From NCBI RefSeq assembly GCF_963921235.1, contig NC_086097.1, positions 19,470,001 to 19,534,000 of the forward strand: a DNA stretch of 64,000 nt. The letters run 5' to 3'. The position numbers and the translations under genes were made by a program. Shown in pieces: positions 16,305-60,264 of this stretch (positions are counted from its first letter, which is position 1; the number at the start of each line of letters is the position of its first letter). Below the pieces are notes generated by a model, which saw nothing but the letters and a program-made list of their open reading frames with translations, was not told the origin of the DNA and did not search any database. Origin of the DNA: Mobula hypostoma (taxonomy: Eukaryota).

Positions 16305-16876
16305 GTATTATGTCAGTGAGGCTAAATGCAGGTTGGAAGAGCAACACCTCATGTTCCATCTGAGTAGTCTCCAACCTAATGGCATGAACATCGGTTTCTC
16401 TAACCTCTGATAACCACTTCTCTCTGTTCCCCCCTACACACCATACAGACACACATGCTCTTATTGTCTTTTCCCATTCTGGTAGCCCTCTCACCCCTTA
16501 TCTTCTCCTCCCCCACCTTCATCGCCTGCTCACCCTTCCTCTGGCTCCCCATCTCCTTCCTTTCACTCCGCTGTCCACTTCTATCAGATTCCTCCTTCTT
16601 CAACCCTTTACCTCTTCCACCTATCACCTCCCAGTTCCTCACATCATTTGCCATCCCTCCCCCACACACCTACCTCCCCCTTCACCTGGTGTCACCTATC
16701 ACCTGTATTCCTCCTCCTCCCCCCAACTTCTGCCATTTCTTTTCCAGTCCTGATGAAGAGTCTCGGCCCAAGACATCAACAGTATATTCCCCTCCATAAA
16801 TGCTGCCTGACCTACTGAGGAACTCAATAGGAAGAGCAGCATCGGTTGGAGTAACGGATTTGTCGATGTTTCAGGT
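16305..16876 (+). mobile_element. Penelope-like element 3' end: GIY-YIG C-terminus, UTR, degenerate hammerhead (16745-16782), short inverted stub
   Basis: EAKCRLEEQHLMFHLSSLQPNGMNIGFSNL* resembles the Penelope-like ORF terminus; followed by cagtcctgatgaagagtctcggccc. Confidence 0.85.
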
Positions 16877-24304: not shown

Positions 24305-24862
24305 CAGCCCATTCCCATTCCAACATGTTGGTCCACAGCTTCCTCTACTGCCATGATGAGGCCACCCCCAGGCTGGAGGAACAACACCTCATATTCGTCT
24401 GGGTAACCTCCCGCCTGGTAGCATTAACCTCAATGCCTCTAATTTCCAGTAATTTCTCCCACTGACCCTTCTCTCTGTTTCTATTCCTTACTCCAGCTTC
24501 ATTCTTATCCCTTCTCTTCTACACACCTGCCTATCACCTCCCTCTGGTGCCCCTCTTCCTTCCCTTTCTTCCATGGTCCACTCTCCTCTCCTTCCAGTTC
24601 TTCTTCTTCAGCCCTTTGCCTTTTCCACCTATCACCTCCCAGCATCTTACTTCATCCCCCTTCACCCGCTTACCCACCGTCATCTCACTTATCACTTGTC
24701 AGCATACAGTACTTCTCCTCCACCAGCTTCATATGCTGGCTTCTGCTCCCTTTCTTTTTAGTCCTGATGAAGGGTCTTGGCCCAAAGGGTCAACTGTTTA
24801 TTCCTCTCCATGGATGCTGCCCGGCCAGCTGAGTTCCTTCAGCTTGGTGTGTGTGTTGCTTT
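24305..24862 (+). mobile_element. Penelope-like element 3' end (GIY-YIG C-terminus, UTR, degenerate hammerhead 24760-24796)
   Basis: HSHSNMLVHSFLYCHDEATPRLEEQHLIF; agtcctgatgaagggtcttggcccaaagggtcaactg. Confidence 0.85.
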
Positions 24863-31965: not shown

Positions 31966-32619
31966 TATACACTTTGGTATTTAATGTTTCCATCCCAGGA
32001 AAAATAATTTTTTCTCTGTTAGAACATAGAACAAGAGAGGGCTATGTGGGAGGGAAGAGTCAGATTGATCTTAGAATAGGTTTAAAGGGTCAGCACAATA
32101 TTGGGGTTGAAAGACCTGTACTGTACTATTCTATGTTCTAACATATTGTATTGTGCAAAAGTCTTTGGGAAAAGAGGTGGGGGTGTGACACTGCTGATCA
32201 GAGATAGTTTCACGGCTGCAGAATAGGAAGAAATCATGGAGGGATTGTCTACTGAGTCTCTATGGGTGGAAGTTAGAAACAGGAAGGGGTCAATAATTGA
32301 GTGTTTTTTTATAGACTACCCAATAGTAACAGGGACACCAAGGAGCAGATAGGGAGACAGATTCTGGAAAGATGCAATAATAACAGAGTTGTCATGGTGG
32401 GAGATTTTAATTTCCCCAATATTGATTGGCATCTCCCTAGAGCAAGCGGCATAGATGGGGTGGAATTTGTTAGGTGTGTTCAGGAAGATTTCCTGACACA
32501 ATATGTAGATAAGGCTGTACTTGATCTGGTATTGAGAAATGAACCTGGTCAGATGTCAGGTCTCTCAGTGGGAGAGCATTTTGAAGATAATGATCACAAT
32601 CCTATCTCCTTTACCATAG

Positions 32620-32827
32620 ACAACAGAAATTCTGCAGATGCTGGAAATTCAAGCAACATACATCAAAGTTGCTGGTGAACGCAGCAGGCCAAGCAGCATA
32701 GGCGCAGTCGACGTTTCAGGCCGAGACCCTTCGTCCTGACGAAGGGTCTCGGCCTGAAACGTCGACTGCGCCTCTTCCTATAGATGCTGCTTGGCCTGCT
32801 GCGTTCACCAGCAACTTTGATGTTTGT
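32620..32827. mobile_element. Fold-back Penelope-like mini-element with 13-bp TSD
   Basis: TSD TCCTTTACCATAG at 32607-32619 and 32828-32840; near-perfect inverted arms centred at 32735-32737. Confidence 0.9.
32733..32766 (+). ncRNA. Minimal type I hammerhead ribozyme motif (intact core)
   Basis: gtc-CTGACGA-agggtctcggcct-GAAAC-GTC-gac. Confidence 0.8.
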
Positions 32828-32856
32828 TCCTTTACCATAGCATTGGAGAGGGATAG

Positions 32857-33758
32857 TGTCACGTACCCCGTGACGGGAATAAAGAAACAGCAGAATTAGA
32901 AAACACTTTGGAGTCCAGCATTGCTATAAACTAATAATATTTATTAGTAACTGCACAATACAGTAACATAAATGTAGATAAGTCAAACAGGTTAGCAATG
33001 ATTATATATATAAGTAAGTATATCAGTAAGTGTGGAAATATATGTATGGAAAACCAAGCATCTTTAAGTCTAGGGGTAAAAAGATCCAGTCTTACGATGA
33101 TGAGCAAAGTTCAGTTCAGTTCAGTTCGTGGTATTGAGTTGAGTAGTGATGGAGAGAGAGAGAGGGAGAGATTTAAGGCTTCAGGGGAGCTAACGCCATC
33201 GATGTTCTCGTTGTCCTTCGAAATCCTTTAAAAGTCACTGACTGTGACTTTAACAAAGGGGACTGGTTTTTCTGTGGTGGAGCTATCCCCCAGGCGAGGG
33301 TGGACACATGGACAACTCCCCACCAGTCAACCCTTTTCCTCTTTCCACTGCAAGAGCGATGGATCGATCCACCTGATCGATCCTCCAAACCCCACTTTTT
33401 CTGCGGGCACAACAATGCTCATTCAGTGTCCAAACATGTGTCTGAGGTCTGTATCATCTGACCTCCTATTTTATCTTCCTGTGCTGAGCATCAACTGTCA
33501 TTCAAATAATTCCTCCTTCCTCTCTCTGTGTAAGAAATGCAAGCAGGCAAAAAGTCCTTGAAAGGTGTCAACAACCTGCCTGCGGTCACCATAGCAACTT
33601 ATGAGCTGCTCGGTGCTGTCTCCAACTCCAGCAGAAATCCAAGAGTTAACCAGTTCCTTAAAGTGACAGTCCAACCGTTAATCTTCGTCTCGCTCTCTCT
33701 TTTACAAACAAGCTATCGGTGGTAAATAACTCTAGGGGTACCTCAGGATCCCCTCACA
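32857..33758. mobile_element. Solo LTR (902 bp, Gypsy-like) with 4-bp TSD ATAG
   Basis: TGTCAC...CTCACA; ATAG at 32853-32856 and 33759-33762. Removing it restores the CR1 sequence. Sister copy at 46203-47011. Confidence 0.88.
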
Positions 33759-41115: not shown

Positions 41116-41865
41116 CCCCAGAATTCGACATTTTTAGTCTGAGGAAAAGACTGTCTACCCTATCATAATTGTATAAACTTCCATTATTTCCCTTCTCAGC
41201 TTTTGACGCTCCAGAAAAATCCACCTTAGTTTGTTCAACGCCTCCTTATTGCTCATACCTTCTAATCCAGGCAGCATCCTCATAAACCTCCAATGAAGAA
41301 GTACCAAAGCCTCCACATCCTTCCTCTAATGGGGCGGCCAGAATTGCACACAATACTCCAAGAGCAGCATAACCAAAGTTTAGTTCTGAGATCACCCATT
41401 TAGAAGCCGCGTACTGTAAGTGTTCATGCTAGAACTAGTGGTCATGGGTTAAGGGTGAAAGGTGAAATGTTTAAGGGGAACATGAGGGGGAACGTCTTCA
41501 CTCAGAAGGCAATGACAGTGTAGAACGAGCTGCCAGTGGTAGTGGATGCAGGTTTGATTTCAACATTGAAGAGAAGTTTGGATAGGTACCTGGAGGCTCA
41601 TAGGCCAATCGTGAGATGATGGGATTAGGCAGAATAACAGTTCAGAATGGACTAAAGGGGCTGAAGAACCTGTTTCTGTGTTGTAGTGTCCTATGACTCT
41701 AAGTGCTACAAAAACAATGTAGGGTGTTCTTGATGTGACAATTGCACTATGTTTCTACAAGGACTATTATTGTGGTCCCTTCCACCAATGTTATCTGCTA
41801 TGGATGATGCCAGGAGGGCTTGAGATAGACTTGATACATGTGACAAATAATCTAATCTAGTCTAA

Positions 41866-42250
41866 ATCCTGATGAAAGGTCTCAGCCCAAAACGGTGACT
41901 ATTTATTTCCCCCTGTAGATGCTACCTGACCGACTGTTCCACCAGCATTTTGGGTGTGTTGCTCTAGATTTCCAGCATCTGCAAACTTCTTTGGCTTCTA
42001 ATCTAGTGTACTGAAAAAGGAAAGCTCCTTGAGAAGGATGAATCACTTGTGGATAAATAAGGAAGTTAAAAATAGAATCAAATGGAAAGAAAATGCACAG
42101 AATAGAAGCACAAGACACTCTGCAGATGCTGGAAATCCAGAGCAACTCACAAAATCCTGGAGGAACTCAGCAGGTCAGGCAGCATCTATGGAAATGAGTA
42201 AACTGGGGATGTTTCAGGCTGAGACTCTTCACTAGGACTGGAAAAGAAGA
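41866..42250. mobile_element. Two Penelope-like terminal repeats, tail-to-tail (plus 41866-41990, minus 42110-42250), degenerate hammerheads
   Basis: tcctgatgaaaggtctcagcccaaaacg and gtttcaggctgagactcttcactaggactg. Confidence 0.75.
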
Positions 42251-43695: not shown

Positions 43696-43892
43696 GAGTG
43701 TTACCGAGAGCCCCAGGTCCCCAAGAGTGCACATCACCGGCAGTAAGTCCTAGTCCATCTATGAAGATGCCAGGGCCAAGATGGCACACCAACACCTCTA
43801 CTTCCTCAGAAGGCTAAGGAAATTTGGCATGTCCCCGTTGACCTTCACCAGTTTTTATTGATGCCCCATCCTATCTGGATGCATAACAGCTT

Positions 43893-44045
43893 AGACAACA
43901 CACATCAAAGTTGCTGGTGAACGCAGCTGGCCAGGCAGCATCTCTAGGAAGAGGTACAGTCGACGTTTCAGGACGAGACCCTTAGTCCAACACAACTTTG
44001 ATGTGTGTTGCTTGAATTTCCAGCATCTGCAGAATTCCTCTTGTT
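43893..44045. mobile_element. Fold-back Penelope-like mini-element with 13-bp TSD
   Basis: TSD TGCATAACAGCTT at 43880-43892 and 44046-44058; arms caacacacatcaaagttg / caactttgatgtgtgttg. Inserted in a Rex1/L2-like LINE (about 43440-44540). Confidence 0.88.
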
Positions 44046-44586
44046 TGCATAACAGCTTGGTTTGTTAACCGTCCTGGACACGACCACAAGAAACTGCAGA
44101 GAGCTGTCATCACATCACAGAAATCCGCTTCTCCTCTATGAACTCTGGCTTTACTTCTCACTGGCTCAGTAAAGCAGCCAGCATAATCAAAGGCCCACCC
44201 ACCCTGGACATCCTCCCTTCTCCCCTCTCCCATCAAACAAAAGATACAGAAGCCTGAAAGCATGTACTGTTCGGCTAAAGGTCGGCTTCTGTCCCACTGC
44301 TATCAGACTCCTGAAAGCATCTCTTGTGCAGCAAGCTGGGCTCCTGGCCTCACAATGTACCTCACTGTGAAGTTGCACTATTGTTGACTTACACTTCACT
44401 TTCTCTGTAGCTTTCACACTTTATTCTGCATTGTTGCTGTCTTAGCTTAATGCACGATGTAATGGGTTTGATCTGTATGAACAATATGCAAGACAAGCTT
44501 TTCACTGTATCTTGGTGTACGTGACGATAATAAACCAGTACCACAACTGAAGACAGGATGATTATTTATATTACACTCACGAATAT

Positions 44587-44999: not shown

Positions 45000-46319
45000 C
45001 TGAACAGAGCCTACTCCCGTCTGGATAAGCAAGCAGCACTGTGGGAATCGTGTTTTTTGACTTCTCAAGTACCATACAGCCCTCATTGCTGGGGGAGAAG
45101 CTCCATTCAATGCAGGTTGGCAATTCCATTGTATCCTGGATAATGGACCACCTGACTGGCAGACCACAGTTTGTGCGGCTTCAGGGCTGTGTGTCAGACA
45201 TGCTGCAAGCAGCACTGGGGCCCCACAGGGGACGGTATTGGCTCCCTTCCTGTTTACCCCATTTACCTCAGAGTTTAGATACAACACTGAGTCATGTCAT
45301 CTTCAGAAATTCTCTGTTGACTCAGCAATAGTTGGGTGTATCAAGGAGGAACAGGACGATGAACACAGGGCCCTGGGGACTTTGTCAAATGATGCAAGCT
45401 GAATCATCTGCAGCTCAACATCAGTAAGACAAAGGAGATGGTGATGGACTTTAGGAAGTTAAGCCAGCGTTGCTCCCTGTTACTATTGATGGTGAGGAAG
45501 TGGATGTGATGAGGACCTACAAGTACCTGAGAGTGCACATGGACAACAGATTGGAGTGGAGCACCAACACAGGAGCTGTGTACAAGAAAGGCCAGAATTA
45601 CCTCTGCTTTCTGAGGAGACTGAGGTCCTTTGGAGTATGCAGTCCTCTCCTTCACATGTTCTACCAATCTTTTGTTGACACTACAATCTTCTATGGGGTG
45701 GTGTGCTAGGGAAATGGTGTCAACAAGATAGATGCCAACAGGCTCAATAAACTGATTAGGACGGTTGGGTCTGTTATAGGAGTTGAAGTGGACACACTGG
45801 AGGCTGTATGAGAACAAAGAAAATCTTAGCAATTCTGGACAATGTTTCTCACCCTCTGCATACCACCTTGGCTGAACAGAGGAGCACTTTGACTAAGACA
45901 GCTGTGCTGCTCCAAAGAGCGATATATGAGGTCATTCTTACCCTCAGCCATTAGGCTCTATAATGAGTCAACCTACAACCGGAGAAATGATGACCCCTCC
46001 TGTTAGACTGTTGTTAACCTCTGTTTACCAGAGCTCTGTTTAGCTCTGTTTACCACACCCTACTATCACGAATACCCTGTTCAATACTGTGCAATAAAAC
46101 CATCACTTCTTATCTGGACAGCGTGAATGTGCATCCGTTGCTATATAATATTACGGTAATTCTTGATTTACCATCTTATCAGTGTGAACTTGGAAACCTC
46201 AAAGTGTGGAAATATATGTATGAAAAACCAAGCTTCCTTAAGTCTAGGGGTAAAAAGATACAGTCTTACGATGATGAGTAAAGTTCAGTTCAGTTGAGTT
46301 TGTGGTATTGAGTTGAGTA

Positions 46320-46359
<40 letters not shown>

Positions 46360-47130
46360 AGTCTTCAGGTGAGCTGACACCATCGATCTTCTCGTTGTCC
46401 TTCGAAATCCTTTAAAAGTCACCGACTGTGACTTTAACAAAGGGGACCGGTTTTCTGTGGTGGAGCTATCCCCCAGGTGAGGGTGGACACATGGACAACT
46501 CCCCACCAGTCAACCCTTTTCATCATTCCACTGCAAGAGCGATGGATTGATCCGCCTGATCGATCCTCCAAAACCTACTTTTCCTGCAGGCACAACAATG
46601 CTCATTCAGTGTCCAGAACATGGGTCTGAGGTCTATATCATCTGACCTCCTATTTTATCTTCCCATACTGAGCATCAATTGTCACTCAAATAACTCCTCC
46701 TTCCTCCCTCTGTGAAGAAATGCAAGCAGGCAAAAAGTCCTTGAAGAAGTATCAACAACCTGCCAAAAATCATAACATCAATTGTCCATTTAATAACACC
46801 GTTGGTCACCACAGCAACTTACGAGCTGCTCACTGCTATCTCCACTTCAGCAGAAATCCAACAGTTAACCAGTTCTTTCTCATTCCTTAAAGTGACAGTC
46901 CCACAGTTAGTCTTCATCTCTCTCTCTCTTTTACAAACAAGTCAGTGTTAAATAACTCTCTCTCTCTTTTCAAAACAACAGTTCATAGGGGTAATTCAGG
47001 ATCCCATCACAAAGGTAACTTATTTTTTTATTCTTCTTACTTTTCTTCTAATATTTGTACATCTGTGAATTTGTAATGCTACTGTGACACTGTAATTTCC
47101 TTTGGAATCAATAAAGTATCTATTTATACT
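45000..47130 (+). mobile_element. Rex1/Babar-like LINE 3' part, interrupted at about 46012-47011
   Basis: FFDFSSTIQP..WIMDHLTGRPQFV, YKYLRVHMDNRLEWS; the 3' UTR resumes at 47012 (aggtaactt..tttggaatcaataaagtatctat). Confidence 0.85.
46203..47011. mobile_element. Truncated copy of the 32857-33758 LTR
   Basis: Highly similar from aagtgtggaaatatatgtatg to caggatcccatcaca. Confidence 0.9.
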
Positions 47131-47812: not shown

Positions 47813-48001
47813 TACACTACATTCATGCACTCAGTATTATTTATTTATTGTTATTATTAATTGTTTTTGTTTTTATTGTTTTGGGACAATTTGGCTACTT
47901 TTGCACATTGCTTGTTCGTCCATCTTTCTTTCTGTGTAGATTTCCATTGATTCTATTGTATTTCTTTGCTCTACTGTGAATGCCTGCAAGAAAATGAATC
48001 T

Positions 48002-48239
48002 CACATCAAAGTTACTGGTGAACGCAGCAGTCCAGGCAGCATCTACTGGAAGAGGTACAGTCAACGTTTCTGATTAATCTCTTACTATCTCTTCTTTCAG
48101 TTAGTCCTGACGAAGGGTCTCGGCCTGAAACGTCGACTGTAGCTCTTCCTAGAGATGCTGCCTGGCCTGCTGCGTTCACCAGCAACTCTTATGTGTGTTG
48201 CTTGAAATTCCAGCATCTGCAGATTTCCTCCTGTTTGCG
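48002..48239 (+). mobile_element. Penelope-like mini-element with inverted 5' arm and 13-bp TSD
   Basis: TSD AGAAAATGAATCT at 47989-48001 and 48240-48252; inverted arm 48002-48070. Confidence 0.9.
48103..48138 (+). ncRNA. Minimal type I hammerhead ribozyme motif (intact core)
   Basis: agtc-CTGACGA-agggtctcggcct-GAAAC-GTC-gact. Confidence 0.85.
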
Positions 48240-48507
48240 AGAAAATGAATCTGATATGTTGACATACATGTATTTTGATAACAGATTTACTTTGAACGTT
48301 GACATTGTGAAGAAAAGCTCTGTAGGCCTCTATATTGCCGCACGTTGTCCTCGGTGATTCAGTACAGTTGAGGACTGGTTATTGAGAGCGAATGCTCGTA
48401 GGTGCCTGGAGGTCACATAGTTCTTCCAAAGCACCATCTTTTCAACCACCCTCCTGCCTCTTCTCACAGAACTTACGGCACAAAAGAAGACTCAATCAGA
48501 TAACTAT

Positions 48508-49135: not shown

Positions 49136-49687
49136 GCAGAGTTGCACCACGTGTATGCAGGAGAAAACCCCCTTTTGTGTGGAACAGAGCCAGAGCCAGC
49201 CACAGAGAGAATCAGAGTGACTAACGGTGGATGGTGTCCACTGACACAATTAATCATATTGAACTGCCGGACCCTATCAGCACTGCCAGCCTCTTGGGAT
49301 TGTAATCTTGAAAATAGATCCAAGCTGCAATCTGAAATGGAATCACTTGCTAATTTAGCTTCCACAGTTTAAGCTATTGGAATTGCTTATCGGGTTTCCC
49401 CATGTGCTGGGCTATCATGATAGCTAGGGTGTACAAACTTTGCCACATCACAAAAAATGAAACCTTCTCCTTTATTATTACACTGGGATTGTAAACTTTG
49501 AAGACCACACCTGCAGGTTCCTATGAGGGCACATTCAATTCTCTGTACCTTTTTATCATCAAGTGCGTTTGTGAGTGTGTGTATGTTTGTTTCAGTTTGT
49601 GTGTACGCATGTACTGTACAGTATACATGTGAGTGTGTGCGTATGTGTGTACTTTAGTGTGTGTGTGAAAAAAGGCAGACTATTCTA

Positions 49688-49980
49688 TACACAAGAGATT
49701 CAGCAGGTGTTGGAAATCCAGAGTAACACACTCAAAATGTTGGTGGAACTCAGCAGGTCAGGCAGCATCTATGAAAAGGAATAGGGAGTCAACGTTTTGG
49801 GCCAAGACCCTTCATCTGGACTGCTCTAGGTAACACACACAAAATGCTGGAGGAACTCAGCAGGCCAGGCACCATCTATGGAAAAAAGTACAGTCGACAT
49901 TTTGGCCTGAAACCCTTCAGCAGGACTGAAGAAATAAAGCTGAGGAGTAGATTTGAAAGGTTGGGGTGGGGGGGGGAAGG
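49688..49980 (-). mobile_element. Tandem direct pair of Penelope-like terminal repeats with two degenerate hammerheads
   Basis: agtcaacgttttgggccaagacccttcatctggactg (49787-49823) and cagtcgacattttggcctgaaacccttcagcaggactg (49891-49928). Confidence 0.8.
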
Positions 49981-57769: not shown

Positions 57770-58535
57770 CATCATTAATCAGGGTATGAGTGCAGGTCTT
57801 GGGCCGTTATGTTGCAGTTGTGTAAGTCATTGGTGAGACAGTGTTTGGAGTACTGTGTACGGTTTTGGTCACACTGTTACAGGAAAGAAGTGGTTAAATT
57901 AGAAAGGGTGCAGAAGAGATTTACAAGGATGTTTCCAGGATCAGAGTTATAGGGAGAGATTGGCCAAGCCAGATCTGACGAAGGGTCTTGGCTTGAAACG
58001 TCGACTGTACTTCTTCCTAGAGATGCTGCCTAGCCTGCTGCGCTCACCAGCAACTTTGATGTATGTTGCCAGATCTTTATGTGCTGTGTTTTCCTCTTGG
58101 TCCCAGAGGAATGTTGTTTCATTTTGTTGTATACATGTGTACGGCTGAATGACAATAAACTTTAACTTGAATTTGAACTTTATTCCTTGGAATGTAGGAG
58201 AATGAGGGGGCGACCTTAAGGAAAAGTTTAAAATTATGAGGGGCATAGTTAAGGTGGAAGTAGCAGTCTTTTCCCCAGGGTGGGGGAATCCATAACAAGG
58301 GGGCATTGACTTACTTTTTCAAACAGAAGATGGTGAGGACATGGAATGAGAAGCCAGATGAAGTGGTTGAGATAGATACAACAATATCATTTAAGCACTT
58401 GAATATGTTCAGGGAGGGGCCTGAAGGGATGTATGCCATTTGCACAACATTGGGATAATCTATGTGGATGTGGTCAGCAGGACTAGTGGGGCCGAAGGGC
58501 CTGTGTCCATGCTACATTGTTCCATGACTCTAATT
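57770..58535 (+). mobile_element. Decayed CR1 3' part with nested insertions
   Basis: ttggagtactgtgtacggttttggtcac, agggtgcagaagagatttacaaggatg, gggccgaagggcctgt. Confidence 0.75.
57975..58067 (+). mobile_element. About 91-bp Penelope-like insertion starting at the hammerhead core, 9-bp TSD
   Basis: GCCAGATCT at 57968-57976 and 58068-58076; CTGACGA-agggtcttggctt-GAAAC-GTC-gactg. Confidence 0.8.
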
Positions 58536-59235: not shown

Positions 59236-59334
59236 TAGTTCAAAGTTTTAAGTGAATTTATCAAAATAGGTATTGTATATGTTCACAACACGCTGGAGGA
59301 ACTCAGCAGGTCGGGCAGCATCCGTGGAAAAGAT

Positions 59335-59372
59335 CGATCGACGTTTCGGGCTGGAACCCTTCGTCAGGACTG
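59335..59372 (-). ncRNA. Minimal type I hammerhead ribozyme motif (intact core)
   Basis: Reverse complement cagtc-CTGACGA-agggttccagccc-GAAAC-GTC-gatcg. Confidence 0.8.
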
Positions 59373-59887
59373 TAGAGGGAAGGGCCAGAGGCCCTATAAA
59401 GAAGGTGGGGGGAGGGTGGGAAGGAGAAGGCTGGTAGGTTCCAGGTGAAAAACCAGTAGGGGGAAAGATAAAGGGGTGGGGGAGGGGAAGCAGGGAGGGG
59501 ATAGGCAGGAAAGGTGAAGAAGGAATAGGGGAAAGCACAATGCGTAGTAGAAGGAAGCGGAACCATGAGGGAGGTAGTAAGCAGCTAGGGTAGTCTCCAG
59601 TCCCTTGGTATGAACATTGAATTCTCCAACTTCCAGTAATTCCCTCCCCCTATCCCAGTTTCACTCTGCCCCCTCCCCCAGCTGCCTATCACTTCCCTCA
59701 TGGTTCCACCTCTTACCCATTGTGCTTTCCCCTGTTCCTTCTTCACCTTTCCTGCCTACCCCCTCCCTGCTTCCCCTCCCCCACCCCTTGATCTCTCCCC
59801 TTACTGGTTTTTCACCTGGAACCTACCAGCCTTCTCCTTCCCTCCCTCCCCCCACCTTCTTTATAGGGCCTCTCCCCCCTCCCTCTT

Positions 59888-59925
59888 CAGTCCTGACGAA
59901 GGGTTCCAGCCCGAAACGTTGACCG
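59888..59925 (+). ncRNA. Minimal type I hammerhead ribozyme motif (intact core, GUU site)
   Basis: cagtc-CTGACGA-agggttccagccc-GAAAC-GTT-gaccg. Confidence 0.8.
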
Positions 59926-60264
59926 TTCGTTTCCACGGATGCTGCCCCACTTGCTGAGTTCCTCCAGCATGTTGTGAGTGTTGCTTTGACCCCAGCATCT
60001 GCAGAGTATTTTGTGTTTACTGTATATGTTACCATATACTACCCTGAGATTCATTTTCATGCAGGCATTCTCAGTCGAATCAAAGAAACTCAATGAAATC
60101 AGTGGAAAACTACACACAAAGACTGACAAAGAGCCAATGTGCAAGAGAAGACAGACTAACTCAATCAATCAATCAATCAATTGATAATATTGAGAATATG
60201 GATTGAAGCTGAGTCCATAGGTTGTGGATTCAATTCTGTTTTCAGTGTTCAGTTCAGTGTTAAT

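What the first reader, a model, noticed from the sequence alone, without database searches (positions are those of the whole stretch)
32607..32840. Fold-back non-coding mini-element centred on a hammerhead, with a 13-bp TSD
Seen in sequence: a 208-bp insert bounded by TCCTTTACCATAG on both sides. Its inverted arms meet at tcgtc-ct-gacga, exactly at the CTGACGA core, so the plus strand has an intact ribozyme core while the minus strand reads AGGACGA. Inference: the RNA would be a long hairpin competing with the ribozyme fold. It could be a mobile retrozyme-like or hairpin-RNA element, or a template-switch product of Penelope-like reverse transcription.
Basis: partly seen in the sequence, partly recalled or inferred. 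Interest (0 to 1): 0.75.

Follow-up and report, generated by a model that had tools for sequence, protein, structure and literature searches.

The report
Fold-back stub of Penelope retroelement
This 208-base hairpin-shaped insert is two head-to-head copies of the end piece of an abundant Penelope-like jumping gene, most likely a dead by-product of one insertion whose hammerhead motif is predicted to be locked shut, so it is a tidy example of a known pattern, not a new mobile RNA.

Summary
In detail: a 208-bp insert (32620-32827), a 13-bp duplication, arms meeting at GTC-CT-GAC, a hammerhead core on + and a broken one on -. Both arms are the 3' end of a high-copy Penelope-like element (PLE); about 28 pieces lie in this window, and older ones carry the end of a GIY-YIG-type reading frame. 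The left arm has a 35-nt tail that the right lacks. Three other TSD-flanked inverted inserts in the window have the same one-sided tail and different junctions, and public contigs show many more junction types. This is the published PLE insertion architecture. The hammerhead has a 3-bp helix I and is predicted to lie 56 kcal/mol above the hairpin. It is not a retrozyme. Whether this exact junction recurs elsewhere could not be tested. One real residue: arm 5' ends cluster at the 5' edge of the hammerhead (9 of 28, about 1 expected), not at its cut site, which may mark where the template RNA begins. The scan has reported such stubs before, in this and other genomes. Interest 0.15.

The parts
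32607..32619 (+). Left target-site duplication (13 nt; 12 plus 1 nt of microhomology is equally possible)
32620..32735 (-). Left arm: inverted copy of the PLE 3' end, from +2 of the CUGA box to near the tail end; 10-nt deletion between 32699 and 32700
32620..32654 (-). 35-nt tail, present on this arm only
   Evidence: the same segment ends the right arms at 48.2, 44.0 and 60.0 kb
32733..32735 (.). GTC shared by both arms: 3-nt microhomology at the junction, part of the element's own GTC-CT-GAC mini-palindrome
32733..32828 (+). Right arm: sense copy of the PLE 3' end from -3 of the CUGA box to the tail-less end point
   Evidence: the copy at 57975-58068 ends at the same point
32733..32766 (+). 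Minimal type I hammerhead motif: CUGACGA 32736-32742, helix II 32744-32755, GAAA 32756-32759, predicted cut after 32763, helix I only 3 bp, no monomer helix III
   Evidence: read from sequence; no Rfam hammerhead match
32731..32737 (-). Broken core box (AGGACGA) on the minus strand
32828..32840 (+). Right target-site duplication
32301..32856 (+). Host: decayed LINE, endonuclease end (CR1-like; that label is recalled); reading frame resumes in the right TSD
   Evidence: Pfam PF14529, E 6e-8; frames
47989..48252 (.). Sister inverted insert, 13-bp TSD, junction +20/about -33, tail on right arm only
43880..44058 (.). Sister inverted insert, 13-bp TSD, junction +2/+76, tail on right arm only
57968..58076 (+). 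Sister single-arm insert, 9-bp TSD, begins at the CUGA box, no tail
59274..60030 (.). Older-subfamily inverted insert, 10-bp TSD, tail on right arm only
24307..24396 (+). Reading-frame remnant upstream of an older copy: end of a GIY-YIG-type endonuclease
16318..16407 (+). Second reading-frame remnant of the same kind

Best explanation
The insert is two head-to-head, heavily 5'-truncated copies of a Penelope-like element's 3' end between 13-bp duplications, most likely left by a single insertion event and probably inert. Inferred steps: the element's endonuclease nicked both strands of a LINE copy about 13 nt apart; both 3' ends primed reverse transcription on the element's RNA, one at the outer start site (tail included) and one at the inner site (tail missing); synthesis stopped at the 5' edge of the hammerhead, a preferred stop; the centre closed through GTC/GAC complementarity, by annealing of the two cDNA ends or by fold-back of the right-hand cDNA; repair filled in the inverted repeat and the duplication. 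The hammerhead is a passenger, predicted to be sequestered in the hairpin on + and mutated on -.
For: Shown: both arms match a family with about 28 pieces in the window. Older pieces run upstream into a frame whose profile finds 68 proteins; the fourth-best carries a full GIY-YIG-type domain with cysteine/histidine motifs. Tail on exactly one arm in 4 of 4 TSD-flanked inverted inserts, with four different junctions. At this insert and at 43.9 kb each arm holds sequence the other lacks, so neither is a plain copy of the other. In contigs of four public runs, 14 of the 15 listed joints (of 352) join an antisense arm, at 13 different end points, to a sense arm. Hammerhead fold 56-58 kcal/mol above the hairpin, which forms as the core is transcribed. 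Literature: inverted 5'-truncated copy and one-sided 30-40-bp tail (PMC8557442); inverted pLTRs with 8-10-bp TSDs and junction palindromes (PMC3846280); both strands nicked and extended, two start sites bounding the tail, hammerhead cleavage not needed in vitro (PMC11167929).
Against: No genome is held, so recurrence of this exact centre was not counted; one search lists only 32 of 144,432 pieces and none of them covers the centre. The insert has no reading frame; the protein link runs through older subfamilies, and Pfam GIY-YIG scored under its cut-off (E 0.002 and 0.001; 2 of 13 proteins scanned). No PLE reverse transcriptase was seen. This junction is the most symmetrical in the window, which a fixed master palindrome would also give. 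The mechanism is borrowed from a lizard element studied in vitro.
Confidence: 0.77

Rival explanations
1. Single-primer fold-back: one cDNA with tail folds back at GTC-AG-GAC and copies itself into a hairpin, which is then trimmed of one tail and joined to the target. Still a one-off PLE by-product; only the route differs.
For: The centre is exactly what a fold-back of the minus-strand cDNA on the native mini-palindrome would give, and it explains the symmetry. A 4-nt palindrome sits at the 48-kb junction. PMC3846280 reads junction palindromes as self-priming.
Against: It needs an extra trimming step. The junctions at 43.9, 48, 43.6 and 59 kb and the listed contig joints are asymmetric. At 43.9 kb each arm has long sequence that the other lacks.
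Confidence: 0.13
2. A propagating non-autonomous palindromic mini-element, copied as a unit by PLE proteins.
For: Clean TSD, young (CpG observed/expected 0.84 against 0.30 for the window), carries the tail signal, symmetrical centre; PLE ends can mobilise sequence in trans (PMC3846280). Exact recurrence is untested.
Against: No second copy of this centre in 64 kb while sister inserts differ. The shared arm variants are subfamily traits: about a third of the laid depth in run X1 has the insert's letters at 32770 and 32791. A near-perfect 81-bp duplex is a poor template (inference).
Confidence: 0.05
3. A retrozyme-like element that self-cleaves and spreads through a circular RNA.
For: Size near 200 nt, type I core, TSD longer than 4 bp, as in metazoan retrozymes (PMC7229834).
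Against: Inverted, not head-to-tail; minimal rather than canonical hammerhead; one core only; fold blocked; none of 28 arm ends within 3 nt of the cut site; no Rfam hammerhead hit.
Confidence: 0.02
4. Later collapse of a longer inverted insert by deletion of its centre, or an assembly error at a hairpin.
For: Long inverted repeats are unstable (general knowledge); the left arm already shows one deletion; no listed contig spans the locus.
Against: Single-arm copies with TSDs begin at the same spot (57975, 41866), which needs no hairpin. The arms differ in three features and the TSD is exact, unlike a mirrored assembly.
Confidence: 0.03

Closest known systems
Insertion units of endonuclease-bearing Penelope-like elements (PMC3846280; PMC8557442)
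   Same: Head-to-head inverted, 5'-truncated copy; 30-40-bp tail on one end only; short TSD; palindrome or microhomology at the junction; hammerhead in the terminal repeat.
   Different: Truncated so far that only the terminal repeat remains; TSD 13 nt against the 8-10 nt in the rotifer passages read; clade (Poseidon, Neptune) not determined.
Minimal hammerheads of metazoan PLEs (PMC4209133)
   Same: Core boxes, unpaired base before helix II, palindromic 15.2-16.2 with no helix III. That paper also notes pairs of such motifs 100-700 bp apart on opposite strands.
   Different: Here the junction cuts into helix I (3 bp) and destroys the second core, so there is one motif, buried in a hairpin.
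Poseidon element of Anolis carolinensis in vitro (PMC11167929)
   Same: Both strands nicked and extended; two internal start sites that bound the tail; cleavage by the hammerhead dispensable.
   Different: That work does not explain the inverted junction or a preferred 5' stop in the parts read; nothing was assayed for this family.
Metazoan non-LTR retrozymes (PMC7229834)
   Same: Small, non-coding, type I hammerhead, TSD over 4 bp.
   Different: Retrozymes are head-to-tail repeats with canonical hammerheads and circular RNAs; this is an inverted pair of PLE ends.

Membership tests
Endonuclease-bearing PLE insertion | Terminal repeat lies downstream of a GIY-YIG endonuclease frame | tested here: met
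   Indirect: older copies of the same terminal sequence carry the frame end; profile hits include a full domain; Pfam score under cut-off
Endonuclease-bearing PLE insertion | Telomerase-like reverse transcriptase in full-length members | not tested
   No full-length copy in the window and no genome held
Endonuclease-bearing PLE insertion | Adjacent inverted 5'-truncated copy, head to head | tested here: met
Endonuclease-bearing PLE insertion | 30-40-bp tail at one end only | tested here: met
   35 nt, left arm only; 4 of 4 TSD-flanked inverted inserts
Endonuclease-bearing PLE insertion | Short, variable TSD | tested here: met
   13, 13, 13, 11, 10 and 9 nt; 6 of 18 candidate spans had one
PLE minimal hammerhead | Core boxes with helices I and II, no monomer helix III | tested here: met
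   Boxes intact on +; helix I 3 bp, below the 4-5 bp described
PLE minimal hammerhead | Self-cleavage as dimer or with protein help | not testable with these tools
   Only folding predictions, which are unfavourable
Metazoan retrozyme | Head-to-tail repeats of the unit | tested here: not met
   Single inverted pair
Metazoan retrozyme | Canonical type I hammerhead (6-bp helix I, helix III) | tested here: not met
Metazoan retrozyme | Abundant circular RNA | not testable with these tools
   No raw RNA reads were available
MITE-like propagating palindrome | Inverted repeats reach both termini | tested here: not met
   35-nt one-sided overhang
MITE-like propagating palindrome | Many copies with the same centre and different TSDs | tested here: inconclusive
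   None in 64 kb; other junctions abound; genome-wide count not possible

The most novel reading that the evidence does not exclude
The centre marks a programmed stop. The template RNA begins, by transcription start or by a splice acceptor, at helix I of the hammerhead, where the native sequence is a pyrimidine tract followed by YAG-TCCTGA. Reverse transcription started at the tail then runs off after 100-135 nt, like a retroviral strong-stop DNA, and these mini-palindromes are arrested intermediates of the reaction that builds pseudo-LTRs. The bolder form, that such units are themselves remobilised, has at most 0.05.
Probability: 0.3. Interest if true: 0.5.

Novelty: already known. Interest (0 to 1): 0.15.

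Why it matters
The locus itself matters little: it is one of very many truncated PLE insertions. How PLEs build their tandem and inverted ends is still open (PMC8557442). A young, abundant family with clean TSDs and a preferred 5' stop offers a large natural data set for deciding between two-primer joining and fold-back, and for asking whether the RNA starts at the hammerhead. Such hairpins could also be sources of small RNAs against the family; that is untested.

Tried and rejected
Whole genome: none held. Rfam: no match at gathering score in the window; at E up to 10 the insert gave 5 matches, all under their gathering scores (miRNA hairpin models and UnaL2), and the native copy at 48 kb gave no hammerhead either, so Rfam does not cover this motif. 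Exact-pattern scans for family copies found 0 in metagenome contigs, viral contigs and prokaryote genomes. Run search: no RNA holder listed, no raw reads, best share of words 0.52. Contigs laid on 32300-33025 showed no listed piece across the locus, so the empty site and the exact centre stayed untested. No second copy of this part of the LINE lies in the window. Pfam on a 27-aa remnant found nothing; the Atlas search was uninformative (best 0.82). A motif scan for a fuller GIY-YIG frame in the window found none. Rejected: ribozyme cleavage as the cause of the junction, since the cut site lies 28 nt downstream and no arm ends within 3 nt of it. Rejected: shared arm variants as proof that one arm was copied from the other, since they are subfamily traits. 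The pile-up of contig joints at 32733 is partly an artefact of where the reference arm begins and was given little weight. Three references had a misplaced anchor and were ignored. Paper searches (listings only, open-access library) showed no paper on these mini-palindromes or on 5' clustering at the hammerhead; Repbase and Dfam were not available, and no supplements were read.

Full report
Observation. A 13-mer is repeated exactly at 32607-32619 and 32828-32840, enclosing 208 bp; by chance about 8e-6 with +-10 nt of slack. The strand folds into one long hairpin, -167.6 kcal/mol, z -23.6. The arms agree at 80 of 81 aligned positions. They are not mirror images: the left arm has a 35-nt extension and a 10-nt deletion, the right arm begins with five bases that the left lacks. 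The plus strand carries CTGACGA and GAAACGTC; the minus strand reads AGGACGA.

Host site. Translated separately, the left flank ends in ISFTI and the right duplication begins SFTIALERDS, so the repeat is a duplication of target, not a feature of the host frame. An empty orthologous site was not seen.

What the arms are. Both are the 3' end of a repeat with about 28 pieces in this 64 kb, in a young and several older subfamilies. Two older copies run upstream into a stop-poor frame. A profile of these two remnants found 68 proteins at E up to 0.001; of 13 scanned, two hit Pfam GIY-YIG below its cut-off (E 0.002, 0.001) and the others gave unrelated families or none; the four others I printed end in or contain the same fragment behind unrelated sequence. 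P0004 shows the complete domain with cysteine and histidine motifs directly upstream of the matched stretch. Together with the minimal hammerhead this marks a Penelope-like element (PLE). The link for the young subfamily is by homology of the terminal region; no RT was seen and the clade was not determined. In four public runs of four coded organisms, 19,812 to 52,878 contigs each were laid on the 726-nt stretch, with the greatest depth over the arms. About a third of the depth in run X1, but about 4 and 14 percent in X4, carries the insert's letters at 32770 and 32791, so these are subfamily traits. CpG observed/expected is 0.84 against 0.30 in the window, which fits a young copy.

One-off or propagating. 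The window holds its own controls. Of 18 candidate spans, 6 have a TSD of 9-13 nt. Four are inverted pairs: this one (arm ends +2/-3 relative to the C of CUGA), 48 kb (+20/about -33), 43.9 kb (+2/+76) and 59 kb (about -225/-293); three have 13-bp TSDs. All four carry the tail on one arm only. Among contig joints, 15 of 352 are listed; 14 join an antisense arm, at 13 different end points, to a sense arm. So the architecture recurs and the junction varies. The exact centre of this insert could not be counted elsewhere: no genome is held, collection scans were empty, and none of the 32 listed contig pieces covers it.

Ribozyme. Helix I is 3 bp here against 5 in the native context at 48.1 kb; helix III is absent as a monomer in both. 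Forcing the hammerhead helices costs 56-58 kcal/mol in either helix II register, and the hairpin is predicted to zip up as the core is transcribed. Rfam has no matching hammerhead for either copy. Minimal PLE hammerheads showed no cleavage as monomers and low cleavage as dimers (PMC4209133). Activity here is unlikely, but this is prediction.

Why the junction sits at the core. It is not chance. Arm 5' ends fall within 5 nt of the CUGA start in 9 of 28 arms, 7 of 26 without this insert, where a geometric truncation model expects about 1 (P 7e-5, or 0.003 after allowing for 40 windows). Boundaries of old copies were partly read by hand, and alignments may tend to stop at a conserved motif. No arm ends within 3 nt of the predicted cut site at +28. 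The native sequence there is a pyrimidine tract followed by YAG-TCCTGA, which fits a splice acceptor or an initiator (motifs from recall). In D. virilis Penelope the intron ends at helix I (PMC4209133) and lies 46 nt after the start site (PMC2377424). A run-off at the RNA's 5' end is therefore my preferred guess for the stop; stalling at structure or the GTC-CT-GAC mini-palindrome are alternatives.

Mechanism. Shown: anatomy, family, variable junctions, one-sided tail, clustering. Inferred: staggered nicks about 13 nt apart, priming from both nicks at the two start sites that bound the tail, arrest at the hammerhead edge, closure by GTC/GAC. A lizard PLE protein nicks and extends both strands and starts at two sites bounding the tail (PMC11167929). 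Two priming events explain why each arm holds sequence the other lacks, here and at 43.9 kb. Whether the centre closed between two cDNAs or by fold-back of one cannot be told; the symmetry of this junction and the self-priming reading in PMC3846280 keep fold-back alive.

Comparison. The inverted 5'-truncated partner and one-sided 30-40-bp tail are described as typical of PLEs (PMC8557442; PMC3846280). Retrozymes are head-to-tail repeats with canonical hammerheads (PMC7229834); both features fail here. Papers as seen: PMC11167929 and PMC4209133, parts 1-2 of 4; PMC3846280, passages and Discussion; PMC8557442, PMC7229834, PMC2377424, passages; no supplements, which may hold examples bearing on junction positions. 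Seven searches listed no paper on the clustering.

Earlier scan notes. Look-ups by words and place returned many reports of such stubs in this and other genomes with the same reading, one reporting the same clustering in this genome. These are unchecked notes and not independent support; my reading was recorded before seeing them, and one gave the lead to PMC3846280.

Verdict. Real, young, ordinary: a fold-back stub of a PLE. Kind already known; interest 0.15. The preferred stop at the hammerhead edge is the part worth a genome-wide follow-up.

Noticed in passing
window 32857-33757: A 901-bp insert with TG..CA ends and a 4-bp duplication (ATAG), like a solo LTR, nested in the same LINE just right of the focal TSD; a second copy at about 46202-46959 is 85% alike.
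   Followed up: partly
window, 28 PLE arms between 4.9 and 62.8 kb: 5' ends cluster at the 5' edge of the hammerhead (9 of 28 within 5 nt of the CUGA start) and none lies at the cut site.
   Followed up: partly
window 49686-49980: Partial tandem of two older PLE ends; the second unit starts at -5, right at helix I, like a minimal pseudo-LTR.
   Followed up: partly
window 48068-48081: The junction of the 48-kb inverted insert carries a small palindrome (GATT-AATC), of the kind read as self-priming in PMC3846280.
   Followed up: no
window 41851-42007: Single-arm copy with an 11-bp TSD and five unexplained bases between the TSD and the hammerhead start; possibly untemplated or a remnant of an upstream exon.
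   Followed up: no
window 32512-32513: The host LINE lacks about 15 nt that other copies have (table 7).
   Followed up: no
proteins P0001, P0006, P0015: Several predicted host proteins end in or contain the PLE endonuclease fragment; likely gene-prediction or read-through chimeras.
   Followed up: no
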